Positions 3,282 to 17,998 of a stretch of DNA of 64,000 nt are shown in pieces. The notes under the pieces were generated by a model. The model was not told the DNA's origin. It made no database searches and was given only the letters and a program-made list of their open reading frames with translations. Both the position numbers and the translations under genes were made by a program. How positions within the stretch are numbered: the first letter of the stretch is position 1; the number at the start of each line of letters is the position of its first letter. This DNA comes from an uncultured Myxococcaceae bacterium (lineage in GTDB: Bacteria > Myxococcota_A > Polyangia > Polyangiales > Ga0077539): contig CAMFHP010000008.1 in the NCBI GenBank assembly GCA_945952225.1, positions 1 to 64,000 on the forward strand, given 5' to 3'.

Positions 3282-4256
3282 TCAGGCGTCGGCGGCGACG
3301 ATGCCGAAGAAGACCTCGGCCTCGGCCTGGAGCGCGTCGGAGAGCTCTTCGCGCTGCTCGTCGGCGTCGTCGGTCTCACGCTCCAGGGCCTTGCGGTACA
3401 CGCGCACGGCGTCGAGGGTCTTGCCCTCGCCCACGAGGCGCAGCACGGCGCGCGGATCGACGCCGGACCTCACCTCGTCGTCGCTCGCGTGCGAGGCGGC
3501 CTCGACCTTCGCGACGCTGAAGAACGCGCGGATCGCCTCGGGCTGCGCGGCGATCACCTCGCGGGTCATGGCCACGAGCTCGTCGTCGGTGAGCACGTCG
3601 TGGCCCGCGTCGTCGTCCTCTTCGCGGTCGAGGCGCAGGGCTTCGAGCCAGGCGCGGTCGCGCGTCGCGGTGTCGGCCACCTGGTCGGCCGCGAGCCCGA
3701 GCCCGTGCCACGCGTCGGAGAGCGACGGATCGGCCTCGATGAGCGCTTCGAAGTACCCGCGCGCCGTGCCGATGTCGCCGACGGCGAGCATGAGGTGGGC
3801 GAGTTCGAGCGCGAGGGGCGGCGCGAAGTCGATCTCCTCGGGGGGCGGCGCGTCTTCGAGCGTGGCGCGCGCGGCCTTGATGTCGCCCGCGTTCACTTCG
3901 AGGCCGGCCTTGAGGGCGAGCGCGTCGAGAAAGACCTCGTCGTCGTCGGCCACTTCGAGGGCCTTCGTCACGAGCTTGAGGGCCTCGTCGGTGTCGCCCA
4001 CCTCGGTCGCGAGAATCTCCGCGTGCCACATGAGCGGCGTGGCCCACTCGGCGTCGAGCTTCGCGGCCTCGACGAGGAGCTCGATGGCCTTCGCGGCGTT
4101 GCCCTCTTCACGCTGGATCGCCGCGTGGAGCAGCAGCCCGTCGCCGCGCGTCGCCGACGCGTCGCGGAGCCTGTCGGCCACCTTGCGCGCGCCCGCGAGG
4201 TCGCCGTCTTCGAGCAGGGCCCAACCGGATTCGAGGAGGTCTTCGTGCTTCTTCAT
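3282..4256 (-). CDS. TPR repeat protein
   Basis: Internal ATG (MKKHEDLLESGW...) within ORF 3282..4340. The sequence has repeated helical A/L/E-rich approximately 34-aa units (AEILATEVGDTDEALKL..., AHLMLAVGDIGTARGYFEALIEADPSLSDAWHGLG) typical of TPR repeats. Confidence 0.6.
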   Translation of the reverse strand: MKKHEDLLESGWALLEDGDLAGARKVADRLRDASATRGDGLLLHAAIQREEGNAAKAIELLVEAAKLDAEWATPLMWHAEILATEVGDTDEALKLVTKALEVADDDEVFLDALALKAGLEVNAGDIKAARATLEDAPPPEEIDFAPPLALELAHLMLAVGDIGTARGYFEALIEADPSLSDAWHGLGLAADQVADTATRDRAWLEALRLDREEDDDAGHDVLTDDELVAMTREVIAAQPEAIRAFFSVAKVEAASHASDDEVRSGVDPRAVLRLVGEGKTLDAVRVYRKALERETDDADEQREELSDALQAEAEVFFGIVAADA

Positions 4257-4364
4257 CGGAGTGGTGGCGCCCACTACCACAGGCCCGCGCGACGTGGTGC
4301 GACGATCCCGAGAGATTCTTCGCGGGATGCGTTCTGGCAACCCGCGGCCGTCGCGCGCGAGGTC

Positions 4365-6275
4365 TCAGGCGTTGGACCAGAAGTGCTTCGCGCCCCGCGC
4401 CACGCGCTCGCGCGTGAGGTCGAAGTCGTAGCGGCGCGACGCGCGCGGATCGCCCGAATAGGCTTCGAGGCAGCGGTCGATGACCGCGAGCGCCGTGTCG
4501 CGCAGGTGGGGATGGTGGTGCACCACGAAGGTGATCGCCTCGCCGAGCGCGCGCACCTCGTCGTAGGCGCCCTCGTGCGTGGCGTTCCATTCGAGCTGCG
4601 CGAGGAGCAGCGGGAGCGCGTCGGCGCCGAGGTGGTGGGCGAGCATCTTCGAAGCCATGCGGGTGGTCGGGTGCGGGTACATCCGTCCGCCGCGCTCCCG
4701 GCCCGCGAGCGCGCGCGCCACGAGGTCGAGCGTGAGGGCCTCGGTGGACCATGCGTCGGGGATTCCCCCCTCCGGCCACCCCTGCGCAGCGAGGGTCTCG
4801 AAATGCGCGCGCAGAAAGAGCCGCTCTCCTTCGCCCTCGAAGGGAATCGCGTTCGTGTACGGCCCGCTCGGAATGCCCATGCCGCGGTCGTACGAATCGC
4901 CGAGGGGATGGGACACATCGCACGGCAACACGTCGTTCGCGCGCATCCACGCGAGCACCGCGCGCACCGTCGCGAGCGTGGCGGCCCCTGCGTCCTGCGC
5001 CCACCCGCCGTCGGTGCCCGCCGAGCCCCAGTGCCACCCGTGCGTGCGCAGCTCGTAGCGGTCGAGCAGGTCTTGCGTGAGCCCTTCGGAGACGCGCCCC
5101 GCGAGCCCCGACGGCGTGGCCGAGCGCAGCATCGAGAGGGCGACGCGCAGGTCCTTCGGGTGCCGCTCGAAGGCCCCGAGCTGAAGGCCGATGTGCAGGC
5201 CGCGCAACGACTCGTCGACCACCGCGAGGCGTTCGAGCGCGAGCCGACGAAACGCGATGGGCGATGCATCGAGTCCCCGCGCGTGGCCGACGCCCTTCAC
5301 GAGATCGACGGCGCACTCGCGGTGCCACGGCACGAACCATCGCTGCGCGCCGCGCACGCCGAGAAGGCCCGGACGGCGCGTAGGCAGACGCGGCGTGTGT
5401 CCCTTGTAGACCGCGGCTTCGGGCTCGGGCCCCGGGTGCGCGCCCCACGCCGAGACCTCGTAGCGCGTGACCGCGCCCGTCGCGAGGTCGTGCGCTTCGA
5501 CGGTGTCGTTCGTGGGCTGCGCGAGGATCGTCGCGCCGTCGACCGCGGGCACGCAGAGGCTCACCACCTCGTGCACGGCGACCTCGCCCGCGCGGGTGAT
5601 CGAGACGCAGCGCACGGTGTCGTTCGAACGGTCGCGCACGAGCACCCACGCGGTGTCTCCCGCGAGGGCGAGGCCGACGTCGGCGCCGGGGTGCACGGCG
5701 AGCGGGAGCTTCCACCACACGGCGTCGTGGGCCGCGTCGACGCCGAGGGAGCCCGCGTAGACGTGGTCGTGGATGCGCGCGAGAAAGTGTCCGTCGCACG
5801 TGGTCGTGAGGTCGAACGACTCGGGCAGCCATCCCGCGCGGTCGTCGGCCTGCGGACCCACGGTGCGCGCATCGAGGGCGCGCGCCGCCGAGAGGTCGAC
5901 CTGACGCTCGTGGCGCGCCGAGTCTCCATCGATCGTCGACACATCGAGCCCGTGCGCGGCGACGGTCACGAGGTGCTCCGCGTCGCCGAGGGTGACCAGT
6001 TGCTGCGGGTGCGCGCCGCGCGAGAGCTTCGCGCGAAGTCCGAGCGCGGGCAGGCCGAGGAGCGACGTGCCCGGGTTGCCGTAGGCGCCCGTGTGCGTGC
6101 GTCCCCACACGAGCAGCGCGCCCTGCCGCGCGTCGATCGAGACGACGCCTGTGGGCGCCGAGACCTTCGCCTGGTGCTTCACCTTCACGGCCTTGCCGAG
6201 CGCGAAGCGGGTGATGCCGAACACGTCGGCGACGAAGAGCGAGGAACCGTCGGGCGCGAAGAGCAGATGGGCCAT
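4365..6275 (-). CDS. Hypothetical protein, about 636 aa
   Basis: The internal ATG giving MAHLLFAPDGSSLFVADVFG (derived from the sequence) is preferred over the low-complexity N-terminal extension of ORF 4365..6632. Same strand and probably the same operon as the TPR gene. No recognisable catalytic motif. Confidence 0.55.
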   Translation of the reverse strand: MAHLLFAPDGSSLFVADVFGITRFALGKAVKVKHQAKVSAPTGVVSIDARQGALLVWGRTHTGAYGNPGTSLLGLPALGLRAKLSRGAHPQQLVTLGDAEHLVTVAAHGLDVSTIDGDSARHERQVDLSAARALDARTVGPQADDRAGWLPESFDLTTTCDGHFLARIHDHVYAGSLGVDAAHDAVWWKLPLAVHPGADVGLALAGDTAWVLVRDRSNDTVRCVSITRAGEVAVHEVVSLCVPAVDGATILAQPTNDTVEAHDLATGAVTRYEVSAWGAHPGPEPEAAVYKGHTPRLPTRRPGLLGVRGAQRWFVPWHRECAVDLVKGVGHARGLDASPIAFRRLALERLAVVDESLRGLHIGLQLGAFERHPKDLRVALSMLRSATPSGLAGRVSEGLTQDLLDRYELRTHGWHWGSAGTDGGWAQDAGAATLATVRAVLAWMRANDVLPCDVSHPLGDSYDRGMGIPSGPYTNAIPFEGEGERLFLRAHFETLAAQGWPEGGIPDAWSTEALTLDLVARALAGRERGGRMYPHPTTRMASKMLAHHLGADALPLLLAQLEWNATHEGAYDEVRALGEAITFVVHHHPHLRDTALAVIDRCLEAYSGDPRASRRYDFDLTRERVARGAKHFWSNA

Positions 6276-6470
6276 GGCGGCGCGGACTCTATCGGTTCGC
6301 GCGGCGTCGGTCAGCGCGTTGTGCGACGCGCGTCGGGCCCCGTCGCCGATGCGAGGCGGACGCACCGCAGACGTTTGCACGGTGTTGCGTGAACGCCGCC
6401 GCAGCGCGACGCATCGGGAGCGGTCACGGGGCGCCCACGAGGGCACCGCCGCGCCGAGGGAACCCACACC

Positions 6471-6902
6471 ATGCAAGCGCTCCAGGGCGCGCGCCGCGTT
6501 GCGGTCGCGTGCGGCGTCGTCGTCTGCCTGCTCACCGGCTGCTACAGCGGCACCGCCGCGTACGTGCCACGTCACGCGCGCCTCGGCGTCGACGGCGCCC
6601 GCGCGATGCGCGCCATCGAAGACACGGTGCACGCCGCGGGTCTCACCGTGGTCTCACGCGACGCGCGACGCGGCTCCCTCGTCGCCCTGAGCACCACCAC
6701 GGCGCTCGGCGACATGGCGACGCGCGAGCGCTGGGTCTTCGGCCTCCGCGGCGACGACGTGCACGTCGAGATGCACCCCGAGACGCGCGATGCCAACGCG
6801 TGGGTGCCCCTGCGCCTCGTGTGCGACTGCTACCAGTACGCCCGCGAGCGCGAGATGCTCCGGGCGATCCGCGCGCGACTCATCGACGCGCGACGGGGAT
6901 GA
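6471..6902 (+). CDS. Small lipoprotein
   Basis: Signal peptide with a lipobox (VVCLLTGC, then YSG). GAGGGA ribosome-binding site 8 nt upstream of the ATG. 143 aa. Confidence 0.55.
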   Translation: MQALQGARRVAVACGVVVCLLTGCYSGTAAYVPRHARLGVDGARAMRAIEDTVHAAGLTVVSRDARRGSLVALSTTTALGDMATRERWVFGLRGDDVHVEMHPETRDANAWVPLRLVCDCYQYAREREMLRAIRARLIDARRG

Positions 6903-6942: not shown

Positions 6943-7740
6943 ATGGGCGGCGCCATTCACATCTTCGTGACCCTGCCGACGCTGATCTACACGGTGCTGC
7001 TCGGGGCCACGCTGCTCTACTGGCTCTCGGTGGTGCTCGGTGCGCTCGACCTCGACGCGCTCGGCGGCGACGGCGCAGACCACGGCGGCGACGCGCACCA
7101 CCACGACGCGGGCGATGCGTCGGGTGACGGCGATGGCGACGCCGACGGCGACGGCGATCATCCCGGTCACGGCGACCTGCTCTCGGCCCTCGGCGGCATG
7201 TCGATCCGCAAGGTGCCGCTCACGATCTCGCTGAGCTTCACGGTGATCTTCGGCTGGCTGCTCAGCGCGCTCACGGTGCTCTTCGTCGGCGACGTCGCGC
7301 GGCGTGCGGGCGTGCCCTCCGCGGCCTTCAACGCGGTGACCTTCACGCTCACGCTGCTGGTCGCGCTGCGCCTCGCGGGTCTCGCGGTGAGGCCCATCGC
7401 GAAGGTCTTCGAAGCGCGCGGCGCCACGAAGAAGGAGCAGCTCACGGGACGCCTCGCCGAGGTCTCGACCGCGCGGCTCGATGCGCGCTTCGGTCAGGTG
7501 CTCGTCGCCGATGGCGGCGCGGGGCTGCTCATCGACGCGCGCTGGGAGGGCGACCGCACGCTCCGTCGCGGCGAGCGTGTGGTGATCACGCACTGGGACG
7601 CCGAGCGCGCCGTCGCCCACGTCGAACCCCTCGATGCGAGCCCGCGTGTGCGCGCGGTCGACGAGGGCGAGCGCGCGGAGGCAGAGCTTTCGCATTCGGC
7701 TGAAAAACAGACCAATCGACGCGGATCCGATTCGGGGTAA
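6943..7740 (+). CDS. NfeD-like / YqiJ-like inner-membrane protein; usual flotillin partner
   Basis: Three predicted TM helices, a His/Asp/Gly-rich loop (GDGADHGGDAHHHDAGDASGDGDGDADGDGDHPGHGD), and a C-terminal OB-fold-like segment (GQVLVADGGAGLLIDARWEGDRTLRRGERVVITHWDAERAVAHVEP) resembling the NfeD C-terminal beta-barrel. It lies immediately upstream of a flotillin gene, as in yqiJ-yqiK. Confidence 0.7.
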   Translation: MGGAIHIFVTLPTLIYTVLLGATLLYWLSVVLGALDLDALGGDGADHGGDAHHHDAGDASGDGDGDADGDGDHPGHGDLLSALGGMSIRKVPLTISLSFTVIFGWLLSALTVLFVGDVARRAGVPSAAFNAVTFTLTLLVALRLAGLAVRPIAKVFEARGATKKEQLTGRLAEVSTARLDARFGQVLVADGGAGLLIDARWEGDRTLRRGERVVITHWDAERAVAHVEPLDASPRVRAVDEGERAEAELSHSAEKQTNRRGSDSG

Positions 7741-7833: not shown

Positions 7834-9783
7834 ATGGACAGCCTCATTCCTGTTGTGATCGCGGCGAGCGCGCTCGGCGTGCTCGTGCTCGGCATCATGG
7901 CCCTGCTCGCACGGTTCTACCGACAGGTCGATCAGGGCAAGGCGCTGATCGTCAACACGCTGAAGGCCGAGCCCCTCGTGACCTTCACGGGCACCGTGGT
8001 CTACCCCATCGTGCATCGCGCCGAGGTGATGGACATCTCGGTGAAGACCATCATGATCGACCGCCGCGGCAAGGAGGGGTTGATCTGCAAGGACAACATC
8101 CGCGGCGACATCAAGGTCACGTTCTTCGTGCGGGTGAACAAGACCCAGGAGGACGTGCTCAAGGTCGCGCAGTCGATCGGGTGTGCGCGCGCGAGTGATC
8201 CCGCGACGATCGAGGGGCTCTTCGAAGCGAAGTTCGCCGAGGCGCTCAAGACCGTGGGCAAGCGGCTCAACTTCGAAGACCTCTACAAGGAACGCGACCA
8301 CTTCAAGGACGCGATCATCGAGGTCATCGGCAAGGACCTGAACGGCTTCGTGATGGACGACTGCGCCATCGACTATCTGGAGCAGACGCCCGTCGAGTCG
8401 CTCGACAAGGACAACATCATGGACGCGGAGGGCATTCGGAAGATCACCGAGCTCACCGTGATCCAGAACGTGAAGACCAACGACCTGCGCCAGAAGGAGC
8501 GCATGGAGGTCGGGGCCCAGAACCTCTCGGCCGACGAGGCGCTCTTTCGCTTCGAGCAGAAGCGCTCCGAGGCCGAGGCGCGGAAGAACAAAGAGGTCGC
8601 CGTCGCGCAGGCCCGAGAGCAGAACGAGGCCGTGCGCGTCGCCAACGAGGAGCACAAGCGCACCGCCCTCGCGCAGGAGAAGAACGCCGAGGAGACCCTC
8701 GTGGCCCAGCAGGCCCGCGAGCGCGCCGTGCTCGTCGCCCAGAAGAACAAGGAGCGCGAGATCGCCGTGGAGCAGGAGCGCGTCGAGCGCGCCCGTCAGC
8801 TCGAAGCGGCCAACCGCGAGAACGACGTGACCGCGCTCAAGATCACCCGCGAGGCCGAGATCGAGCGTCAGCGCCGCGAGATCGCCGACGTGGTGCGCGC
8901 GCGCATCGTGGTCGAGAAGTCCGTGGCCGAAGAGGAGGAGCGCATCAAGGACGTGCGCGTCCTCGCCGATGCGAACCGTCAGAAGGACGCGAAGCGCATC
9001 GCCGCCGAGGCCGACGCCGCGCAGAACCTCGTGAAGCAGGTGAAGGCCGCCGAGGCCGCGGAAGAGGTCGCGAAGTTTCAGGCGCGTCAGCAGCTCGTGG
9101 CCGCCGAGGCCGCGCTCGAAGCCGCGGAGAAGCAGAGCCGCGCGAAGGTGCGTCTCGCCGAGGGCGTGCAGGCCGAAGCCGCCGCCGCGGGCCTCGCCGA
9201 CGTGCGGGTGCGCGAGGCCGCCGCCGCCGCGGTCGAGAAGCAGGGCCTCGTCGATGCGCGGGTGATGCTCGAGAAGATGCAGGCCGAGGCGCAGGGCGCC
9301 GAGCAGCAGGGCGTGGCGCGTGCGAAGGTGCGCGAGGCCGAGGCGCGCGCGCTGGAGCTGCAGGGCGCCGCCGAGGCGTCGGCGATTCGCGCGAAGATGA
9401 GCGCCGAGGCCGCGGGCATCGCCGAGAAGGCCGAGTCGATGAAGGCCCTCGACGCCGTGAGCCGCGAGCACGAGGAGTTCCGCCTGCGACTGGAGCAGAG
9501 CAAGGTCATCGCGCTGGAGTCGATCCGCGCGAAGAAGGACGTGGCCGGCGTGCAGGCCGAGGTGCTCCGCGCGGCCTTCGAGCACGCGAAGATCAACATC
9601 GTGGGCGGCGACGGGCAGTTCTTCGAGCGCTTCATGCGCGCGGTGACGCTCGGTCAGTCCATCGACGGCGCCATCGACCAGAGCGACACATTGCGCTCGC
9701 TGCTCACGCAGATCGCCGAGACCGAGGCCGCGCCCGCCGAGACGGCCGAGACCGCGGAAACCTCCCCCCGCCGCGCGCGCTGA
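7834..9783 (+). CDS. Flotillin family protein (SPFH/band-7; YqiK/FloT-like)
   Basis: ATG at 7834 preceded by AAGGGAG. The product starts MDSLIPVVIAASALGVLVLGIMAL (TM helix), then an SPFH domain (QGKALIVNT...VVYPIVHRAEVMDISVKTIMID...), then a long Ala/Glu/Arg/Gln-rich coiled-coil typical of flotillins. Confidence 0.85.
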   Translation: MDSLIPVVIAASALGVLVLGIMALLARFYRQVDQGKALIVNTLKAEPLVTFTGTVVYPIVHRAEVMDISVKTIMIDRRGKEGLICKDNIRGDIKVTFFVRVNKTQEDVLKVAQSIGCARASDPATIEGLFEAKFAEALKTVGKRLNFEDLYKERDHFKDAIIEVIGKDLNGFVMDDCAIDYLEQTPVESLDKDNIMDAEGIRKITELTVIQNVKTNDLRQKERMEVGAQNLSADEALFRFEQKRSEAEARKNKEVAVAQAREQNEAVRVANEEHKRTALAQEKNAEETLVAQQARERAVLVAQKNKEREIAVEQERVERARQLEAANRENDVTALKITREAEIERQRREIADVVRARIVVEKSVAEEEERIKDVRVLADANRQKDAKRIAAEADAAQNLVKQVKAAEAAEEVAKFQARQQLVAAEAALEAAEKQSRAKVRLAEGVQAEAAAAGLADVRVREAAAAAVEKQGLVDARVMLEKMQAEAQGAEQQGVARAKVREAEARALELQGAAEASAIRAKMSAEAAGIAEKAESMKALDAVSREHEEFRLRLEQSKVIALESIRAKKDVAGVQAEVLRAAFEHAKINIVGGDGQFFERFMRAVTLGQSIDGAIDQSDTLRSLLTQIAETEAAPAETAETAETSPRRAR

Positions 9784-9835: not shown

Positions 9836-12800
9836 ATGTCCGACGCCGCTGAGAACACGGCGGCCTCCGAGCTCGGAGGCAGCTACGAGGTGATCCGCCG
9901 AAGGCTCATCGAGCAGGCGACCGAGCTCGGTCGGCGCGCCGAGCAGCTCAACGCGCGCCGCATCGAGGTGTTCGGCGGCAGCGACCTGAGCCTCACGGCC
10001 ACGGAGCGCGTGCGCACGGAGAACAACTGCCTCCCGCGCGACATCGTCGCCGTGGGGCCGCGGCTCCTCGTGGCCTACGACGTGTTCGTGGGCATGAAGA
10101 GCGAGGTCACCGTGGCCGACGTGTTCGGCCTCCACCGCGTCGTGCGCAACGAGCAGGGCGCACCCACGCTCGAACCGCTGCCCCTCGACGACGGCGGGTT
10201 TCTCAGCGACGAGCGCTTCGTCCGCGAGTTCGGCGACCTGTTCAAGTACGTGCGCGAGGCGCGGATCCTCCAGCTCCGTCGCACCGATCACCGCCTGCTC
10301 GCGGTGTTCTCCACGGGCCCCGGCGCGCGCGATCGGAGGGTGTTCCGCTGGAGCATCGACGCCGCGGGACGCATCACGTACCTCGACGCGCGCGGCGAAG
10401 AGGACCACGTGCGCCCCCGCGCCCACGACTTCACGTGGAAGACCGCCACGCGCGAGAACCACGTGCAGGGCCGCCATCCCCACGTGTCGATCTTCGACGA
10501 GGTCTTCGTCGAGACCATCGGCGGCGACCTCACCATCAAGGTCGAGAACAACACGGCATCGGGCCAGGGCATCTACGCCGAGCCCGTCGACGACGCGAAC
10601 CAGTCGCTCGACGACGCGACGATCGGCTACGCGCGGCTCGGCGCGCTGATCCTGCTGCGCGTGAAGCCCTACCGCGAGAGCGTCACGCGGCATTTTCTCT
10701 ACAACCCGCGGCGTCGTCAGGTGCTGCGCATCGACGCGTTGGAGCAGGCCTGCCTCGCGCTGCCCGAAGACCACGGCGCGATCTTCTCGACGGGCTACTA
10801 CCTCGTCACCGGCGAGCACAAGCTCTTCGACGCCGAGGGCGGGCCCATGACCTTCGAGCGCGTGCTCCGCGCGCCCAACGGCGAGGACGTGCTCTACGTC
10901 TTCTTTCGCGAGAGCGACGGTCGCTACCTGCTCTTTCCGTACAACCTCATTCGCAAAGAGGTCGCGACGCCGATCACCTGCCACGGGTACTCGCTCTTCG
11001 ACGACGGTGCGCTCATCGTCTTTCGTGCGGCGCCCGGTGAAGAGCCTCGCAGGGTGCATCCGATGCAGGTGTGGCGGACGCCCTTCGTCTCCGCGGAGGT
11101 GGCCGCGAGCGCGCCGGTGGCAGGGTCGTTCCTGGGGCGCGTGGGCAACCCCGACCTGGTGCGCGGCATCTCCGAGGCGCTCTCGCTGCGACGACTCGCG
11201 CTCGGCGAGAACCCCGATCGGCAGACCTGGGAAGACCTCATCGCCGCGTCGGGACGCATGGTCGATGCGTTCCACTGGCTCGGCCACGCGGAGTGCTTCG
11301 ACCTGCTGGGTGCGCTCAAGCAGGTGCGCGCCGTCGCCGAGCAGATCGTCGACGAGTACGAGAAGGTCGTCGCGATCCGCGCGCGCGCCGCCGAGGCCCT
11401 CGCGAAGGCCGAGGGCGATCAGAAGGAGCTGCTCCGCGCGCCCGCCGATGCGTCGGAGAGTGCCGACGCGTTCATGCAGGCGCTCACGGCGCTGCGTCGT
11501 CAGCGGGGTGCCCTCGGAACGCTCCGCGAGATGCGCGCGATGAACCTCACGCGCGTCGAGGCGTTGGAGTCCGAGGTCGACGCGCGCTTCACCGAGACGA
11601 GCCTCGCGGCGGCGACGTTCCTGTGCCGCGACGACGCGCTGCGCCCGCTCGTCGAGAAGGTCGACGCCGCGGTCGCGCAGGCCGAGAAGGTCGCGCGCTC
11701 CATCGAGCTCGCCCCCGCACAGGCCGAGGTCGACCGCGTGTACGAGGGCACCACCGTGCTCTCCGAGACCGTCGCGGGACTCCAGGTCGACGACCCCACG
11801 GTGCGCACGCGCATCCTCGACGCGATCGGCGAGGTCTTCGGCCGCGTGAACCGCGCCCGCGCCGTGCTCCAGGGCCGCGCGAAGGAGCTCCGCGGCCACG
11901 AGCTCCGCGCCGAGTTCGCGTCGCAGTCGAAGCTCCTCGCGCAGGCCATCCAGAGCGCGCTCGCGGTGGCCGACACGCCCGAGCGCTGCGACGCATCCCT
12001 CTCGCGCCTCGTGGTGCAGCTCGAAGCCCTCGAAGGCCGCTTCGGCGAGCTCGACGAGTTCGCCCCCGAGCTCGCATCGCGGCGCGAGGAGCTCCACGAC
12101 GCCTTCGGCGCGCGGCGCCAGACCCTCGTCGACGAGCGGCAGAAGCGCGCGGCGAACCTCATGGCCGCGGCGGAGCGCATCCTCCAGGGTGTCGAACGCC
12201 GCGTGCGCGCGATCCCCTCGCCCGAGGAGCTTCACGCGTACTTCGCGGGCGATCCGATGGTGGCGCGGGCCCGCGAGCTCGTGGCGCAGCTCCGCGCGCT
12301 CGGCGACGCGGTGAAGGCCGACGAGATCGAGGGACGCATCAAGTCCGCGCGTCAGGAGGGCACGCGCGCGCTCCGCGACCGCAGCGATCTGTTCGACGGC
12401 GCCGACAACGTCATCCGCTTCGGCCAGCACCGCTTCTTCGTCAACACGCAGCCCCTCGAACTCGCGATCGTTCCCCGTGACGGCGCCCTCGCGCTGCACC
12501 TCACGGGCACGGATTTCTACGAGCCCCTCGAAGACCCGCGCCTCGACGAGGCCCGCGATCTCTGGGCGCAGACGCTCCCCGGCGAGTGCGAGACCGTGTA
12601 CCGCGCGGAGTTCCTCGCGGCGTGTGTGCTCCGCGACGCCGAGCGCAACGAGCGCGGCCTCTCGATCGAGACGCTCCGTCAGGAGTCGCTCAAGTCCGAC
12701 GGGCTCCTCGCGCTCGTGCGAACGTGGTCCGCGGAGCGCCACGACGAGGGCTACGAGCGCGGCGTGCACGACGTCGATGCTGCGGCCATTCTCGGCGCGC

Positions 12801-15535
12801 TGCTTCCCGTGCTCACCGCGGCGGGCACGCTCCGTCACCAGGGCGACGCGCGCTCCCTCGGAGTGCTCCACGCGGCGACGCTCGACGAGCCCGCCCGCAC
12901 CCTCCTCGCGCGGCGTGCCCGCTCGGCCCGCAGGCTCCGCGCGCACATCGGATCGAGCGCCGCGCGCGACGAGCTGGTCGACGAGCTCGTGCCCGCGCTC
13001 GACGCCTCCGCGAAGCTCTGGCGCACCGCCTCTCACGAAGGTCTTCGCCGTCGCGCCGCGCAGTACATCGTCGACGAGCTCGGCGCCGACAGCGCGCGCT
13101 GGGTGCTCTCGTCCGAGGCCACCGCGCTGCGCCTCGCGTTCCTCAAGGTGCTCACGGAGCAGGGCACGCGGTCGGCCTTCGAAGACGACCTGCGCGCGCT
13201 GGAGAAGCTCCCCGCCGAGCGCCTCGCCCTCGCCACGCGCTGGCTCGAAGCCTTCGCGCAGAAGGCGCCCGAGCACACGCGCGCGGTCGCCGAGTGTGCG
13301 GCCTCGATGGTGGTCGACCGACGCATCGAGCGAGAGCCCTCCACGGTGTCGCTCGACGTGAAGATCGAGGGACTCTTCGGTCAGCACCCGCGCGTGCAGA
13401 ACCGCACGCTCGCGCTGCGGCTCGATGAGTTTCTCGCGCGCACCGACGAGATGATCGACGTGCGCCTGCCGCGATGGCGCGCGTACCGAAAGGCCCGCGC
13501 CGAGGTGGCCGAACGCGAGCGCCGTCGACTGCGCCTCGATGAGTTCACCGCGCGCGTGCTCACGAGCTTCGTGCGCAACGGACTGATCGACGAGGTGTAC
13601 CTCCCGCTCGTGGGGCAGAACCTCGCGAAGCAGCTCGGCGCCGCGGGCGATGGCAAGCGCACCGACCTCATGGGCCTGCTGCTCCTCGTGTCGCCGCCGG
13701 GCTACGGCAAGACCACGCTGATGGAGTACGTCGCGAGTCGGCTGGGGCTCGTGTTCGTGAAGGTGAACGGCCCGTCGCTGGGACACGCCGTGGTGAGCCT
13801 CGACCCCTCGGAGGCGCCCAACGCCACCGCGCGCCAGGAGGTCGAGAAGATCAACCTGGCCTTCGAGATGGGCAACAACGTGATGCTCTACCTCGACGAC
13901 ATCCAACACACGAACGCGGAGCTGCTCCAGAAGTTCATCTCGCTCTGCGACGGGTCGCGTCGCATCGAGGGCGTGTGGCGCGGCCGCACGCGCACCTACG
14001 ACCTTCGCGGCAAGCGCTTCTGCATCGTGATGGCGGGCAATCCGTACACCGAGTCGGGCGCGCGCTTTCGCATCCCCGACATGCTCGCGAACCGCGCGGA
14101 CACCTACAACCTCGGCGACATTCTCGGCGGCCGCGACGACGTGTTCGCGCGCTCGTACGTCGAGAACGCGCTCACCTCGAACGCCACGCTCGCGCCCCTC
14201 GCGGGTCGTGACCCCGCAGACCTCCGCAAGCTCCTTCGCATCGCCGAGGGTGAGAGCCTCGCGCCCTCGGAGCTCGCGCACCCGTACAGCGCCGCCGAGG
14301 TGGGAGAGATCACCGCGGTGCTCCGGGGCATGCTCCGCGCGCGCAACACGCTGCTCGCGGTGAACGCCGAGTACATCCGCAGCGCCTCGCAGGAAGATGC
14401 GTTCCGCACCGAGCCGCCCTTCAAGCTCCAGGGCAGCTACCGCAACATGAACAAGGTCGCCGAGAAGATCGTCGCGGCGCACACCGACGACGAGGTCGAG
14501 GCCCTCGTGAGCGACCACTACACCAGCGAGAGCCAGACGCTCACGACGGGCGCAGAGCAGAACCTCCTGAAGCTCGCCGAGCTCCGCGGACGACTCACCG
14601 ACGCGCAGCGCGCCCGCTGGGATGCGATCAAGAAGGAATACCTCCGTCAGAAACGCGTCGGCGGCCGCGACGACGACCCCGTGGCGCGCGTCACGGGCAC
14701 GCTCTCGACGCTCGGCGAGGAGCTCGAACGGCTGCGCACCGACCTCGTGAAGGCCGCGTCTTCTCGCGAGGGAGAGCGCACCGTGGCCGCGCAGCTCACG
14801 CCCCACCTCGACGCGCTCGCGAAGGCCCTCGCCTCGGTGTCGCGCCCCACGCTCGACGTGAGGCTCCCGACGCCCGATCCCCGCGCGCAGGCCGACGCGC
14901 TCGCGCTCGCGCTGCGCAACGCCTCGGCCGACCTCGCGCCCGTGGCCCGCGCCGCACAGCACGGCCTCGGCACGCTCCCCGCGCTCCTCGAGTCGCTCGT
15001 GTCGGTGCTCACCCGCATGGAGCAGCGCCTCGCCGACGCGCCCGTCCCCGTGGCCACGGTCGCCCCCGCGTTGCCCGCGCAGCCCGCCTCCGTGGCCCGT
15101 GCGTCGGTTCCCTCGCCGGCCCCCTCCCCGACCCCTGCGCCGCGCGCGGCGACGCCCGCAAGGCCCCTCTCCGCGCTGCCCGACACCATGGCCGCCGTGC
15201 CCGGTGCGATGCGCTTCGAAGCCACCCTCGACGCGGCGAGCGCCTCGCATCTCTGGGTGCCCCGCGGCGCCGACACCGATGTGCTCCGCGACGGCGGGGT
15301 CTACGTGCAGACCCATCGCGCGCTCCCGCCGCTTGGCGGGCTCGTCTCGCTCGTGATCGACCTCGCGGGTGCGGGACGCTTCGAGGTGCCCGCGCAGGTG
15401 ATGTTCGTCCGCGAGGCCGCCCTCGATGTGCCCGATCCGGGCTTCGGCGCGCGGCTCACGCAGCTCCCGCCGGAGCTCGAACGTGCGCTCCGTCGCTACG
15501 TGATCGAACGTGACCCCGTGCAGGTGCGACGGTGA
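9836..15535 (+). CDS. Giant (1899 aa) MoxR-like AAA+ ATPase with a long coiled-coil region and a PilZ-like C-terminal domain
   Basis: A single uninterrupted ORF with a GGGAG ribosome-binding site before the ATG at 9836. Near residue 1300 there is a Walker A motif (LLLLVSPPGYGKTTLMEYV), a Walker B motif (NVMLYLDDIQH) and a sensor region (FCIVMAGNPYTESGARFRIPDMLANRADTY) that resemble MoxR/dynein-type AAA+ modules. After a Pro/Ala-rich linker, the last roughly 110 aa (LRDGGVYVQTHRALPPLGGLVSLVIDLAGAGRFEVPAQVMFVRE...GFGARLTQLPPELERALRRYV) follow the myxobacterial PilZ-domain pattern but lack the canonical RxxxR / DxSxxG motifs. The antisense 1870-aa ORF I treat as a shadow. Confidence 0.8.
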   Translation: MSDAAENTAASELGGSYEVIRRRLIEQATELGRRAEQLNARRIEVFGGSDLSLTATERVRTENNCLPRDIVAVGPRLLVAYDVFVGMKSEVTVADVFGLHRVVRNEQGAPTLEPLPLDDGGFLSDERFVREFGDLFKYVREARILQLRRTDHRLLAVFSTGPGARDRRVFRWSIDAAGRITYLDARGEEDHVRPRAHDFTWKTATRENHVQGRHPHVSIFDEVFVETIGGDLTIKVENNTASGQGIYAEPVDDANQSLDDATIGYARLGALILLRVKPYRESVTRHFLYNPRRRQVLRIDALEQACLALPEDHGAIFSTGYYLVTGEHKLFDAEGGPMTFERVLRAPNGEDVLYVFFRESDGRYLLFPYNLIRKEVATPITCHGYSLFDDGALIVFRAAPGEEPRRVHPMQVWRTPFVSAEVAASAPVAGSFLGRVGNPDLVRGISEALSLRRLALGENPDRQTWEDLIAASGRMVDAFHWLGHAECFDLLGALKQVRAVAEQIVDEYEKVVAIRARAAEALAKAEGDQKELLRAPADASESADAFMQALTALRRQRGALGTLREMRAMNLTRVEALESEVDARFTETSLAAATFLCRDDALRPLVEKVDAAVAQAEKVARSIELAPAQAEVDRVYEGTTVLSETVAGLQVDDPTVRTRILDAIGEVFGRVNRARAVLQGRAKELRGHELRAEFASQSKLLAQAIQSALAVADTPERCDASLSRLVVQLEALEGRFGELDEFAPELASRREELHDAFGARRQTLVDERQKRAANLMAAAERILQGVERRVRAIPSPEELHAYFAGDPMVARARELVAQLRALGDAVKADEIEGRIKSARQEGTRALRDRSDLFDGADNVIRFGQHRFFVNTQPLELAIVPRDGALALHLTGTDFYEPLEDPRLDEARDLWAQTLPGECETVYRAEFLAACVLRDAERNERGLSIETLRQESLKSDGLLALVRTWSAERHDEGYERGVHDVDAAAILGALLPVLTAAGTLRHQGDARSLGVLHAATLDEPARTLLARRARSARRLRAHIGSSAARDELVDELVPALDASAKLWRTASHEGLRRRAAQYIVDELGADSARWVLSSEATALRLAFLKVLTEQGTRSAFEDDLRALEKLPAERLALATRWLEAFAQKAPEHTRAVAECAASMVVDRRIEREPSTVSLDVKIEGLFGQHPRVQNRTLALRLDEFLARTDEMIDVRLPRWRAYRKARAEVAERERRRLRLDEFTARVLTSFVRNGLIDEVYLPLVGQNLAKQLGAAGDGKRTDLMGLLLLVSPPGYGKTTLMEYVASRLGLVFVKVNGPSLGHAVVSLDPSEAPNATARQEVEKINLAFEMGNNVMLYLDDIQHTNAELLQKFISLCDGSRRIEGVWRGRTRTYDLRGKRFCIVMAGNPYTESGARFRIPDMLANRADTYNLGDILGGRDDVFARSYVENALTSNATLAPLAGRDPADLRKLLRIAEGESLAPSELAHPYSAAEVGEITAVLRGMLRARNTLLAVNAEYIRSASQEDAFRTEPPFKLQGSYRNMNKVAEKIVAAHTDDEVEALVSDHYTSESQTLTTGAEQNLLKLAELRGRLTDAQRARWDAIKKEYLRQKRVGGRDDDPVARVTGTLSTLGEELERLRTDLVKAASSREGERTVAAQLTPHLDALAKALASVSRPTLDVRLPTPDPRAQADALALALRNASADLAPVARAAQHGLGTLPALLESLVSVLTRMEQRLADAPVPVATVAPALPAQPASVARASVPSPAPSPTPAPRAATPARPLSALPDTMAAVPGAMRFEATLDAASASHLWVPRGADTDVLRDGGVYVQTHRALPPLGGLVSLVIDLAGAGRFEVPAQVMFVREAALDVPDPGFGARLTQLPPELERALRRYVIERDPVQVRR

Positions 15536-16308
15536 GCGCAGCCCGTCTCGTCACGGTCGCTGTCGTGCTGGTGGCGTGCGCGGCGCGTCCTGCGTCGGTG
15601 CTCCCCGACGTCTCGCACACCGAGCTCACGTCGCGCGCCGTGCAGGTCACGCCCGATCTCACGGTGCGTCCGCTGGCGCCCGGCGTGTTGCGCCACACCT
15701 CGTGGCGCGTGCTGCCCGACGTGGGGCGCTTTCCCTCGAACGGCCTTGTTCTCCTGGGCCCGCATGAGGCCATCGTGGTCGACACCGCGTGGGGTGCGGA
15801 GCTCACGGAGGCGCTCTTCACCCACATCGAGCGCGACCTGCACCGACGCATCACGCACCTCGTGGTGACGCACTCGCACGACGACCGCATCGGCGGCATT
15901 CGCGAGGCGCTGCGTCGTCACGTCGCCGTGCACGCGCTCACCCTCACCGCCACGCGTGCGACGGCCGAAGGGCTCCCGCCACCCACCGACCCCTTCGAAC
16001 GCGAGACCGCCGTCGACGCCGATGGAATGCGCGTGGAGGTCTTCTTCCCCGGCGCCGCCCATGCCCCCGACAACGTGGTCGTGTGGGTCCCCTCGCAGCG
16101 CATCCTCTTCGGCACGTGCATGGTGCGCTCGGCCGACGCGCGCTCCCTCGGCAACCTCGCCGACGCGTCCGTCGCCACGTGGGCTGCATCGGTGCGCGCG
16201 GTGATGGCCCGCTATCCGTCACCCGCCATCGTCGTGCCGGGCCACGGCGAACCCGGCGACGCCTCGCTCCTCACGCACACGCTCGACCTCGTGGCCGTGG
16301 GACGCTGA
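15532..16308 (+). CDS. Subclass B1 metallo-beta-lactamase lipoprotein
   Basis: GTG start at 15532 overlaps the TGA stop of the upstream giant gene (GTGA). LVAC lipobox in the signal peptide. B1 zinc-ligand motifs are present in order: HSHDDRIGG (H116-x-H118-x-D120), GAAHAPDNVVVWVP (H196), ILFGTCMV (C221) and VVPGHGEPGD (H263). Confidence 0.85.
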   Translation: MSAARLVTVAVVLVACAARPASVLPDVSHTELTSRAVQVTPDLTVRPLAPGVLRHTSWRVLPDVGRFPSNGLVLLGPHEAIVVDTAWGAELTEALFTHIERDLHRRITHLVVTHSHDDRIGGIREALRRHVAVHALTLTATRATAEGLPPPTDPFERETAVDADGMRVEVFFPGAAHAPDNVVVWVPSQRILFGTCMVRSADARSLGNLADASVATWAASVRAVMARYPSPAIVVPGHGEPGDASLLTHTLDLVAVGR

Positions 16309-17509: not shown

Positions 17510-17998
17510 TCAGCCTTTCGGCGCGCCCTGTCGTTCGAGCACGGCGAGGATCTTGTCGAGGCGATCGGCGATGCGCCGCTGCGTCTCCTGCGCGTCGCGG
17601 GCCTCGGCCTCGCGCTCGGCGGCCGGCGCGTCGAAGAGCTTCGCGGCGAGCGAGGGCCCCACGGTGTTGAGCCACGACGCGATGACCTTGCCGCGCTCGG
17701 ACCGCGCGAAGGTGTCGGCGTAGCCCACGGAGAGGCTCGTGGTCACGAACACCAGCGCGTCGGCGAAGGTGCGCACCTTGGGGTTCACGCCGCGCTCGCA
17801 CTGCCAGAAGAGGTACGCGGCCGAGAGCACGGTGACCGCCGTCGCGTCGAGGGGATCGCGCGCCACGAGCTCGCGCGCCTGCTTCTTCACCGCGGGCCAC
17901 GGCCCCCCCGCGTCGGGGTCGCCGAGGGCGTTCATCGCGAGGCCCGCGAGGGCGGTGAGGGCCTTGAGGTTCACGGCGCGACGGGGCGTGGTGCTCAT
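17510..17998 (-). CDS. Putative two-TM ion-channel family protein
   Basis: TM1 (TAVTVLSAAYLFWQ), a pore-helix-like segment and a selectivity-filter-like SVGYAD (compare TVGYGD), then a second hydrophobic segment. 162 aa. Only 12 nt from the downstream hydroxylase gene on the same strand. Confidence 0.45.
   Translation of the reverse strand: MSTTPRRAVNLKALTALAGLAMNALGDPDAGGPWPAVKKQARELVARDPLDATAVTVLSAAYLFWQCERGVNPKVRTFADALVFVTTSLSVGYADTFARSERGKVIASWLNTVGPSLAAKLFDAPAAEREAEARDAQETQRRIADRLDKILAVLERQGAPKG

What the first reader, a model, noticed from the sequence alone, without database searches (positions are those of the whole stretch)
9836..15535. Unusual architecture: N-terminal unknown domain, about 700 aa of coiled-coil, a MoxR-like AAA+ core, and a degenerate PilZ-like C-terminal barrel
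The only recognisable catalytic module is a single AAA+ core near residue 1300 (Walker A GYGKTT, Walker B LYLDD, sensor Arg region), which resembles MoxR/dynein-type chaperone ATPases. The C-terminal roughly 110 aa follow the myxobacterial PilZ fold pattern but lack the c-di-GMP-binding RxxxR/DxSxxG motifs. That suggests a non-canonical PilZ used as an interaction domain. MoxR ATPases normally work with VWA partners, and this window holds two giant VWA proteins 20 kb away.
Basis: partly seen in the sequence, partly recalled or inferred. Interest (0 to 1): 0.7.

Follow-up and report, generated by a model that had tools for sequence, protein, structure and literature searches.

The report
Flotillin-operon AAA+ ATPase with PilZ tail
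This 1899-residue protein is an ordinary member of a widespread, uncharacterised bacterial family that databases call "DNA repair ATPase", but its fold and its conserved neighbours indicate a MoxR-like motor working with a membrane flotillin scaffold rather than on DNA.

Summary

Three points do not hold.
- The "unknown" N-terminus is Pfam DUF3686 (632 bits), modelled as a beta-propeller.
- The middle is only partly long helices.
- The proposed VWA partnership has no support.

The family is common: at least 585 species and 916 clusters at 50% identity. NCBI names it "DNA repair ATPase". I found no paper on DUF3686 or PF12458.

The gene is the third in a cassette made of a YqiJ-like 3-TM protein, a YqiK/flotillin-like SPFH protein and this ATPase. 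The flotillin-like gene lies within 8 kb upstream on the same strand in 79 of 81 informative loci, median gap 45 nt, across five phyla. In 11 gammaproteobacterial loci DUF2170-PspA precedes the cassette. In 7 loci each, a rhomboid gene and a PLD gene follow it. Ravi et al. 2024 (PMC11237479) already described this operon computationally.

Most likely it is an ATP-driven remodeller of flotillin/PspA assemblies under the membrane. The PilZ-like tail is specific to Myxococcota. Interest is moderate.

The parts
6943..7740 (+). Gene 1 of the cassette: a small membrane protein (265 aa) with 3 TM segments, an acidic Asp/Gly/His-rich loop and a C-terminal beta domain. It is YqiJ/YuaF-like.
   Evidence: Hydropathy shows TM segments at 7-32, 97-115 and 127-152. 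A profile of 37 orthologues against E. coli YqiJ gives hhalign probability 92.9%, E 3.6e-7. The match to YuaF (2k14) is weak, E 0.41. There is no Pfam hit. An orthologue is present in 72 of 83 loci.
7834..9783 (+). Gene 2: a flotillin/YqiK-like SPFH protein (649 aa from ATG 7834; the ORF is open from GTG 7762). It has an N-terminal TM helix, an SPFH domain and a long Glu/Ala-rich coiled coil.
   Evidence: The N-terminal part alone hits Pfam Band_7 at 34.6 bits, cut-off 23.6. The family profile against E. coli YqiK gives probability 99.9%, E 6.8e-33. Sources name homologues 'YqiK' or 'flotillin family protein'. There is one TM helix at 7-25. It lies within 8 kb upstream of the ATPase gene on the same strand in 79 of 81 informative loci, median gap 45 nt.
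9836..15535 (+). Gene 3: the DUF3686/DUF7902/AAA+ protein (1899 aa), cytosolic.
   Evidence: GC3 is 0.92. There is no convincing TM segment. It is colinear over residues 1 to about 1640 with 55 diverse full-length homologues.
9989..11077 (+). N-terminal beta-propeller (residues 52-414), preceded by helix 16-46. This is the core of Pfam DUF3686 (residues 30-480, window 9923-11275).
   Evidence: The AlphaFold model has pLDDT mostly above 85 and is all-beta here. Foldseek hits are WD40 and other propellers: PALB2, prolyl oligopeptidase propeller, clathrin terminal domain and IFT-A. Pfam DUF3686 scores 632 bits.
11093..12397 (+). Long-helix stalk (residues 420-854), with helices of up to 58 residues. 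It contains Pfam DUF7902 (residues 600-684, window 11633-11887).
   Evidence: DSSP on the model, pLDDT 67-90. Pfam DUF7902 scores 82.8 bits.
12413..13420 (+). Small beta unit (860-897), a compact all-alpha domain (901-1160) and short strands (1166-1195). It holds invariant motifs such as G863, F867, Y973, G976, H978 and D981. It is not a coiled coil.
   Evidence: The model has pLDDT above 90 over 920-1200. Invariant columns are listed.
13676..14125 (+). AAA+ alpha/beta core (residues 1281-1430). Walker A is at 13691-13717, Walker B (LYLDD) at 13883-13900, the pre-sensor-1 beta-hairpin at about 13958-14020, sensor-1 N1402 at 14030-14053 and the Arg-finger candidate R1420 at 14075-14101.
14135..15037 (+). 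Lid and a further helical region (residues 1434-1734). The part conserved across the family ends near residue 1640; the remainder is lineage-specific helices.
   Evidence: Model. Actinobacterial homologues end at the equivalent of about residue 1643. The block around 1510-1540 has many invariant residues.
15041..15187 (+). Pro/Ala-rich disordered linker (residues 1736-1784).
   Evidence: pLDDT is below 50. The sequence is shown.
15209..15532 (+). C-terminal PilZ-type beta-barrel with a terminal helix (residues 1792-1899). It lacks the c-di-GMP motifs and is restricted to Myxococcota.

Best explanation
The protein is a cytosolic mechano-enzyme of the DUF3686 family. It has a beta-propeller and a long helical stalk at the N-terminus, a conserved alpha domain, one MoxR/dynein-clade AAA+ module, and in Myxococcota a c-di-GMP-blind PilZ-type domain on a flexible linker.

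It is co-transcribed with a YqiJ-like 3-TM protein and a YqiK/flotillin-like SPFH protein.

The likely mechanism is as follows. All of it is inferred except where marked as shown.
1. The YqiJ/YqiK pair builds an oligomeric scaffold or cage anchored on the cytoplasmic face of the inner membrane. This is by analogy with solved SPFH cages.
2. The ATPase oligomerises through its AAA+ module, as MoxR proteins do, presumably as a hexamer.
3. The propeller-tipped arms dock on the flotillin coiled-coil cap, on PspA polymers, or on a client protein.
4. ATP binding and hydrolysis use K1292, D1354/D1355, N1402 and R1420. Their invariance is shown. This drives assembly, opening or disassembly of the sub-membrane structure during envelope stress.
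5. The PilZ-like domain adds a protein-protein docking or regulatory site and is not a c-di-GMP sensor.

The database name 'DNA repair ATPase' is probably wrong.
For: Shown:
- Gene order. The flotillin-like gene lies upstream on the same strand within the 8-kb flank in 79 of 81 loci that have upstream DNA (median gap 45 nt; a few are further away). The YqiJ-like gene is present in 72 loci. The taxa include Myxococcota, Actinomycetota, Gammaproteobacteria, Planctomycetota and Acidobacteriota.
- These are the only conserved neighbour families.
- Independent RefSeq annotation shows the same triad on a Streptomyces plasmid and on pQBR103.
- Partner identity: the profiles match E. coli YqiK at E 7e-33 and YqiJ at E 4e-7.
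- In 11 gammaproteobacterial loci DUF2170(YjfI)-PspA precedes the cassette. A rhomboid gene and a PLD gene each follow it in 7 loci.
- Ravi et al. 2024 (PMC11237479) reported the same operon and proposed a role in sub-membrane assembly and dynamics.
- The catalytic motifs are invariant, and the AAA+ region is the best conserved part of the protein, at 48-70% identity between phyla.
- Topology. The ATPase has no TM segment. The flotillin has one N-terminal TM helix followed by basic residues, which places SPFH and the coiled coil in the cytoplasm.
- No + strand terminator-like site was found between the three genes, and Shine-Dalgarno-like sequences precede genes 2 and 3.

Established knowledge used for the inference: SPFH proteins form membrane-attached cages (flotillin, HflK/C and QmcA-YbbJ structures cited in PMC13086221 and PMC11260169). 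HflK/C works with the AAA+ protease FtsH.
Against: - There is no experimental datum for any member of the family. No paper mentions DUF3686 or PF12458.
- Operon linkage shows functional coupling, not physical interaction or the direction of the remodelling.
- Two loci (Sorangium L001 and Labilithrix L024) carry a copy with no flotillin gene within 8 kb. In L005 the flotillin gene is 6.4 kb away.
- Characterised MoxR ATPases act through VWA/MIDAS adaptors, and none is present here.
- Walker B is DD rather than the usual DE, so turnover may be slow or regulatory.
- A helix-2 insert hairpin, typical of this clade, is not evident in the model.
- The flotillin profile finds no solved structure by sequence, so the cage analogy is indirect.
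Confidence: 0.55

Rival explanations
1. It is what the databases call it: a DNA-repair ATPase, that is, an SbcC/Rad50/RecN-like coiled-coil ATPase acting on DNA ends or junctions, or a RuvB-like motor.
For: Pfam describes PF12458 as 'ATPase involved in DNA repair' and NCBI names the homologues 'DNA repair ATPase'. The protein has long helices. RuvB appears among the weak sequence hits and the Foldseek hits.
Against: - The protein does not have an ABC/SMC-type split ATPase head. The P-loop lies in a single AAA+ domain at residues 1281-1430.
- No SMC, Rad50, nuclease or DNA-binding domain is detected.
- No nuclease or repair gene is conserved nearby. The conserved neighbours are membrane proteins.
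- No paper supports the name.
- My inference, not tested: the name may have spread from coiled-coil similarity to COG0419-type annotations.
Confidence: 0.05
2. One reading: a MoxR-type chaperone that works with the two giant VWA proteins at 35568-43768 in the way RavA-ViaA, NorQ-NorD and CbbQ-CbbO work.
For: The AAA+ core is structurally closest to NorQ and CbbQ, which use VWA partners. One of the distant proteins has a weak VWA match and both have VIT.
Against: - The VWA hit is sub-threshold (17.3 bits against 23.8) and occurs in one protein only.
- Those genes are 20 kb away on the opposite strand. ffh, an S1-repeat protein gene, an amidase gene and others lie between.
- None of 83 homologous loci has a conserved VWA/VIT neighbour.
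Confidence: 0.03
3. The cassette is an anti-phage or other conflict system: a large NTPase sensor with membrane-acting effectors, spread by horizontal transfer.
For: - The distribution is patchy across distant phyla.
- It occurs on some megaplasmids, including pQBR103.
- There are weak PADLOC hits to AAA+ defence ATPases: mad8 and IetA at E about 2e-3.
- A PLD-family hydrolase follows the cassette in 7 loci.
Against: - The PADLOC hits cover only the P-loop region and are not significant.
- Only 13 of 72,556 plasmid records carry it, and several of those are chromosome-sized records.
- The ATPase module is 48-70% identical between phyla, unlike fast-evolving defence sensors.
- The partners are orthologues of the housekeeping or stress proteins YqiJ, YqiK and PspA.
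- The flanking genes in the loci examined are not defence genes.
Confidence: 0.07
4. The C-terminal PilZ domain makes the protein a direct c-di-GMP effector, so that c-di-GMP switches the ATPase on or off.
For: The fold is PilZ. Eight myxobacterial homologues have a Pfam PilZ hit on record. Myxobacteria have many PilZ-like paralogous domains (TIGR02266).
Against: RxxxR is absent from this protein and from all 22 aligned family members. The Ser of DxSxxG is replaced. The closest solved relatives are the Xanthomonas type IV pilus PilZ proteins. From my own knowledge, not from a tool result, these do not bind c-di-GMP and instead bind PilB and FimX.
Confidence: 0.08

Closest known systems
[quoted passage not shown] 2024, mSystems, PMC11237479)
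   Same: The three genes and their order are the same. The ATPase architecture is the same: propeller, helices and AAA+. My gammaproteobacterial loci reproduce their extended form with DUF2170-PspA and PLD.
   Different: This window holds the abbreviated form. No PspA or CesT/Tir gene was found among the ORFs scanned (the GC3-called ORFs of the first 43.8 kb). The ATPase also carries a PilZ-type C-terminal domain that the text I read does not mention. The system is known only from comparative genomics.
MoxR-family AAA+ ATPases CbbQ and NorQ (PDB 6l1q, 9qh4)
   Different: Identity is only 14-16%. There is no VWA/MIDAS partner. Walker B is DD rather than DE. No helix-2 hairpin is seen in the model. 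The module is embedded in a 1900-aa multidomain protein rather than a roughly 270-aa stand-alone ATPase.
HflK/HflC-FtsH (an SPFH cage working with an AAA+ machine)
   Same: Both pair an SPFH-family membrane scaffold with an AAA+ ATPase. This is a functional analogy only.
   Different: FtsH is a membrane-anchored classical-clade AAA protease. Here the ATPase is cytosolic, belongs to the MoxR clade and has no protease domain. The SPFH protein is of the YqiK/flotillin type, not HflK/C.
Xanthomonas type IV pilus PilZ (XAC1133/XC1028; PDB 3cnr, 3dsg, 4f48, 7lkq)
   Different: Here the domain is fused to a giant AAA+ protein through a disordered linker instead of being a free roughly 115-aa protein. 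Its partners are unknown.
E. coli yqiJ-yqiK and Shewanella SO1376-SO1377 (two-gene flotillin operons)
   Same: Genes 1 and 2 of the cassette are homologues of these. The Shewanella pair is described as a two-gene unit with a terminator after SO1377 (PMC1468410).
   Different: Those operons lack the third, ATPase gene.

Membership tests
DUF3686/DUF7902 AAA+ family (NCBI 'DNA repair ATPase') | Pfam DUF3686 hit above the gathering score | tested here: met
   632.5 bits against a cut-off of 25, residues 30-480, full profile 1-448.
DUF3686/DUF7902 AAA+ family (NCBI 'DNA repair ATPase') | Pfam DUF7902 hit, and colinear full-length similarity including the AAA+ module | tested here: met
   DUF7902 scores 82.8 bits against a cut-off of 26. 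Residues 1 to about 1640 align with 55 diverse full-length representatives at 33-51% identity.
MoxR/dynein-clade AAA+ | Walker A, Walker B, sensor-1 and Arg finger present | tested here: met
   GYGKT, LYLDD, N1402 and R1420 are all invariant. Walker B is DD, not DE.
MoxR/dynein-clade AAA+ | Pre-sensor-1 beta-hairpin | tested here: met
   The model shows two strands at residues 1376-1389, between the post-Walker-B helix and the sensor-1 strand. This rests on the model only.
MoxR/dynein-clade AAA+ | Helix-2 insert (beta-hairpin) | tested here: inconclusive
   The model shows a loop and short helices at about 1312-1329, not a hairpin.
MoxR/dynein-clade AAA+ | Closest solved structures belong to the clade | tested here: met
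MoxR/dynein-clade AAA+ | Sequence-profile membership (Pfam AAA_3 or AAA_5) | tested here: inconclusive
   AAA_5 scores 25.0 bits against a cut-off of 22. There is no AAA_3 hit, and the generic AAA profile PF00004 scores higher, at 29.1 bits.
MoxR-VWA two-component chaperone systems | A VWA/MIDAS partner encoded next to the ATPase | tested here: not met
   No VWA family appears among the conserved neighbours in 83 loci. The only candidates in the window are 20 kb away, on the opposite strand, with a sub-threshold VWA hit.
PilZ domain (PF07238), canonical c-di-GMP receptor | Pfam hit above the gathering score | tested here: not met
   20.3 bits against a cut-off of 22.5, covering profile positions 32-101 only. 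Eight homologues have a PilZ hit on record.
PilZ domain (PF07238), canonical c-di-GMP receptor | RxxxR and (D/N)xSxxG motifs | tested here: not met
   There is a single Arg in the R-F-[DE] stretch. The second motif is D-V-[VL]-R-x-G, with the Ser lost, in all 22 aligned members.
Non-canonical (XAC1133-type) PilZ | PilZ beta-barrel fold with significant profile similarity to XAC1133/XC1028 | tested here: met
TIGR02266 (myxobacterial PilZ-like paralogous domain) | NCBIfam hit above the cut-off | tested here: not met
   23.6 bits against a cut-off of 68.7, E 4e-5. Related, but not a member by the curated threshold.
SbcC/Rad50/RecN-type DNA-repair ATPases (implied by the database name) | ABC/SMC-type head split by a coiled coil, and a nuclease or repair gene context | tested here: not met
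   There is no SMC_N, AAA_23 or similar hit. The protein has a single AAA+ fold. No repair gene is conserved nearby.
Flotillin-YqiJ-AAA+ operon of Ravi et al. 2024 | [quoted passage not shown] | tested here: met
   Conservation is shown.
Flotillin-YqiJ-AAA+ operon of Ravi et al. 2024 | CesT/Tir-PspA dyad in the same operon (extended form) | tested here: not met
   Absent from the ORFs scanned in the window (first 43.8 kb). Present in 11 gammaproteobacterial loci. The window therefore has the abbreviated form that the paper also describes.

The most novel reading that the evidence does not exclude
The DUF3686 ATPase is the missing energy source of bacterial flotillin and PspA biology. In this reading a MoxR/dynein-clade AAA+ ring carries propeller-tipped helical arms. 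The propeller-plus-helix arrangement gives weak fold matches to clathrin, IFT-A and nucleoporin proteins. The ring would uncoat or reshape YqiK/flotillin cages and PspA (ESCRT-III-like) polymers on the inner membrane. That would make it a bacterial functional counterpart of Vps4 or of clathrin uncoating. In Myxococcota its PilZ-like tail would dock a FimX-like c-di-GMP sensor or another ATPase, tying membrane-domain turnover to second-messenger signalling.
Probability: 0.25. Interest if true: 0.8.

Novelty: new member of a known kind. Interest (0 to 1): 0.42.

Why it matters
The function of bacterial flotillins is still debated. Deleting SPFH genes often gives weak phenotypes, for example in P. 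aeruginosa (PMC13086221).

A conserved, dedicated AAA+ partner gives a concrete way to study them. A Walker-B trap mutant, or a deletion in Pseudomonas, Streptomyces or Myxococcus, could show what flotillin/PspA assemblies do and how they are turned over.

The work also shows that a database name carried by thousands of proteins, 'DNA repair ATPase', has no support in sequence, fold or gene context. Annotation-based analyses should not rely on it.

For this window the result is mostly a correction. The architecture is not unique. Its partner is a flotillin, not a VWA protein. The operon was already described computationally in 2024.

Tried and rejected
- Literature searches for 'DUF3686', 'PF12458', and 'flotillin' with 'DNA repair ATPase' found nothing. 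Searches for flotillin with MoxR, and for SPFH with AAA+ and gene neighbourhood, gave no direct description. The prior description turned up only on reading PMC11237479.
- Whole-protein phmmer against PDB gave only weak P-loop hits to classical-clade AAA proteins such as Cdc48 and Rix7, E about 1e-3. This would have suggested the wrong clade. The structure comparison overruled it.
- The full-length flotillin-like protein gave no Pfam or PDB hit. Only its N-terminal part alone hits Band_7. The family profile also finds no PDB sequence.
- The link between the small upstream protein and NfeD could not be established through YuaF (E 0.41) or through Pfam. The comparison with YqiJ worked.
- PADLOC gave only insignificant hits.
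- The first context look-up, Sorangium L001, showed no flotillin gene. That nearly led me to drop the context idea. The 80-locus scan showed L001 to be an exception.
- I checked whether ORF 6471-6902 could be a CesT/Tir-like chaperone. It looks like a lipoprotein and has no family hit.
- The downstream metallo-beta-lactamase is not part of the cassette. It has no counterpart in the other loci.
Full report
**1. Is the feature there?**

The window is 72% G+C, so long ORFs occur on both strands. The + strand ORF 9836..15535 (1899 aa) has third-position G+C of 0.92. The overlapping antisense ORF has 0.74. The + strand is therefore the coding one.

- Walker A SPPGYGKTT at residues 1286-1294
- Walker B MLYLDD at 1350-1355
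- sensor-1 MAGNPYTE at 1399-1406
- PDMLANRAD with R1420 at 1414-1422

**2. What the profile libraries say**

- Pfam finds DUF3686 ('ATPase involved in DNA repair') over residues 30-480 at 632 bits.
- It finds DUF7902 over residues 600-684 at 83 bits.
- It gives weak AAA (29 bits) and AAA_5 (25 bits, cut-off 22) hits around residue 1282.
- NCBIfam gives only a sub-threshold hit to TIGR02266, the myxobacterial PilZ-like domain (23.6 bits against 68.7), at 1819-1889.
- The last 131 residues alone score 20.3 bits against Pfam PilZ, cut-off 22.5, and match only profile positions 32-101.
- PADLOC gives nothing significant.

So the N-terminus is not unknown to the databases, and the AAA+ core is not the only recognisable module.

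**3. How common is it?**

- A word-indexed search found more than 4100 homologues at E below 1e-10. The closest is 73% identical, from Polyangiales metagenome bins. Sources mostly name them 'DNA repair ATPase'.
- An exhaustive search of the 50%-identity library with residues 1-700 found 916 clusters at E of 1e-3 or better. Full-length members are 1600-1900 aa.
They come from Myxococcota, Actinomycetota, Gammaproteobacteria, Planctomycetota and Acidobacteriota.
- Plasmid records add Deinococcus and Hymenobacter.

Residues 1 to about 1640 are colinear in all full-length members. The AAA+ region is the best conserved part, at 48-70% identity even where the N-terminus is about 30%. The sequence beyond about 1640 is lineage-specific.

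**4. Structure**

Two AlphaFold models were built from family alignments.

Residues 1-1200 (pLDDT 85.9):
- a helix at 16-46
- an all-beta domain at 52-414
- long helices at 420-854
- a small beta unit at 860-897
- a compact all-alpha domain at 901-1160

Foldseek matches the beta domain to WD40 and other propellers, and to propeller-plus-helix proteins such as the clathrin terminal domain, IFT-A and nucleoporins. TM-scores are low. 'About 700 aa of coiled coil' is therefore only partly right.

Residues 1190-1899 (pLDDT 78.7):
- an AAA+ alpha/beta core with a beta-hairpin between the post-Walker-B helix and the sensor-1 strand
- a helical lid and extension
- a disordered Pro/Ala linker at 1736-1784
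- a confident beta-barrel plus helix at 1792-1899

**5. The C-terminal domain**

- A profile of 22 family members hits the same PilZ proteins (3dsg, 3cnr, 4f48, 7lkq) at E 6e-7 to 4e-6, and nothing else significant.
- The alignment shows no RxxxR. It shows D-V-[VL]-R-x-G in place of DxSxxG. It also shows the conserved motifs GGVFVxT, LPxLG and PGFGAR.
- The domain occurs in 103 of 236 close homologues, judging by the named sources all from Myxococcota. Other lineages have a helical tail instead.

The 'degenerate PilZ used as an interaction domain' reading is reasonable. From my own knowledge, XAC1133-type PilZ binds PilB and FimX rather than c-di-GMP.

**6. Gene context, the main result**

Upstream on the same strand lie a 265-aa protein with three TM segments (6943-7740) and a 649-aa protein with one TM helix, an SPFH domain and a long Glu/Ala-rich coil (7834-9783).

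- In 83 homologous loci, tblastn and all-against-all ORF clustering found exactly two conserved neighbour families.
- The flotillin-like gene is present in 79 loci. Two of the remaining four are cut at a contig end. It lies upstream on the same strand with a median gap of 45 nt; a few gaps are larger, up to 6.4 kb in L005.
- The small TM protein is present in 72 loci.
- Profiles of the two families match E. coli YqiK (probability 99.9%, E 7e-33) and YqiJ (92.9%, E 4e-7).
- RefSeq annotation independently shows 'hypothetical / flotillin family (or SPFH) protein / DNA repair ATPase' on a Streptomyces plasmid and on pQBR103.
- In 11 gammaproteobacterial loci DUF2170 (YjfI) and PspA/IM30 genes precede the cassette. 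A rhomboid gene and a PLD-family gene each follow it in 7 loci.
- No VWA gene is conserved nearby.
- The window's candidate VWA proteins are VIT/TPR proteins (one also has FecR) 20 kb away on the other strand. Only one has a VWA hit, and it is sub-threshold.

**7. Prior knowledge**

No paper in the library mentions DUF3686 or PF12458.

Ravi et al. 2024 (mSystems, PMC11237479) describe an operon that combines CesT/Tir-PspA with three further genes:
[quoted passage not shown] - a 3TM YqiJ/YuaF protein, with a PLD hydrolase in some Proteobacteria

They note that abbreviated operons without PspA are widespread. This window has the abbreviated form. None of the ORFs scanned, which are the GC3-called ORFs of the first 43.8 kb, hits PspA or CesT/Tir. 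The operon association is therefore already known computationally. No experiment on it is reported in what I could search.

**8. Mechanism**

Shown:
- the domain anatomy, the invariant catalytic residues and the MoxR-clade fold
- a cytosolic ATPase next to membrane-anchored partners whose bulk faces the cytoplasm
- tight operon linkage across phyla, and linkage to PspA in one lineage

Inferred:
- The YqiJ/YqiK pair forms an SPFH-type scaffold under the membrane.
- The ATPase oligomerises like other MoxR proteins and uses its propeller-tipped arms to engage that scaffold, PspA or clients.
- ATP turnover remodels the assembly during envelope stress.
- The PilZ-like domain is an added docking or regulatory site in Myxococcota.

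I put about 0.55 on this explanation as a whole. Functional coupling to the flotillin scaffold is the best-supported part; the specific remodelling mechanism is much less certain.

Rival explanations are a DNA-repair ATPase, a MoxR-VWA chaperone, a defence system and a direct c-di-GMP effector. Each conflicts with at least one tested feature (see the rival entries).

**9. Verdict**

- The protein is a typical member of a catalogued but uncharacterised family, in an operon described in 2024.
- What remains interesting is that the family name is almost certainly wrong. The family also offers a direct experimental route into bacterial flotillin and PspA function.

Noticed in passing
window 15532-16308 (+): A subclass B1 metallo-beta-lactamase gene lies here (NCBIfam NF033088, 242.8 bits against a cut-off of 200). 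The protein has a hydrophobic N-terminus with a Cys that looks like a lipoprotein signal. Its GTG start overlaps the ATPase stop codon (GTGA). It has no counterpart in the other 83 loci, so the adjacency is specific to this lineage.
   Followed up: partly
window 35568-39608 and 39605-43768 (-): Two tandem, overlapping ORFs of about 1350-1390 aa with VIT and TPR hits. One of them also has FecR and a sub-threshold VWA hit.
   Followed up: partly
L049, L051, L052, L055, L060, L064, L065 and others (Gammaproteobacteria), about 3600-5000 and 13100-14700 in locus coordinates: An extended operon: DUF2170(YjfI)-PspA, YqiJ-like, flotillin, ATPase, rhomboid and PLD-like. The passages of Ravi et al. 2024 that I read do not mention the rhomboid protease gene (7 loci).
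   Followed up: partly
L001 (Sorangium sp. So ce233) and L024 (Labilithrix sp.); L005 (Myxococcales 68-20): These PilZ-bearing copies of the ATPase have no flotillin gene within 8 kb, or have one 6.4 kb away (L005). Sorangium homologues fall into two length classes, about 1870-1890 aa with the PilZ-like end and about 1780-1810 aa without it. That suggests paralogues, only one of which is linked to flotillin.
   Followed up: no
C-terminal tails of non-myxobacterial homologues, e.g. L049:12978-13349, L053:6805-7275, L064:12942-13391, L076:12891-13223: A short conserved motif, roughly (I/V)NQPVPG(L/M/I)DKVL..(L/M)(A/G)(D/E)(T/A).E.S..P(L/V)V, recurs in otherwise low-complexity helical tails. It may be the ancestral C-terminal element. 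In Myxococcota the PilZ-like domain lies at the equivalent end of the protein.
   Followed up: no
window 13883-13900 (Walker B): Walker B is hhhhDD (D1354, D1355), invariant in all 56 aligned homologues, rather than the usual hhhhDE. The catalytic consequence is unknown.
   Followed up: no
window 6471-6902 (+): A 143-aa ORF lies just upstream of the YqiJ-like gene. It has a lipoprotein-like signal (LLTGC) and overlaps the end of the 755-aa minus-strand ORF 4365-6632. It is also called as a gene in the metagenome contig L087, whose flotillin-like protein (P0387) is 99% identical to the window's. It has no family hit.
   Followed up: partly
L085 (pQBR103, NC_009444.1) 1-1423 in locus coordinates: On the Pseudomonas megaplasmid, DUF1190 and glutathionylspermidine-synthase-family genes sit directly upstream of the cassette. 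These resemble E. coli yjfM and yjfC of the PspA-paralogue operon. This fits the polyamine/PSP context described in PMC11237479.
   Followed up: no
window 17510-17998 (-); L008:4362-4826 and five other myxobacterial loci: A small Ion_trans_2 (K+ channel-like) gene lies near the cassette in the window (20.3 bits, below cut-off). Another lies just upstream on the opposite strand in six myxobacterial loci (26.5 bits in L008). I did not test whether the two are orthologous.
   Followed up: no
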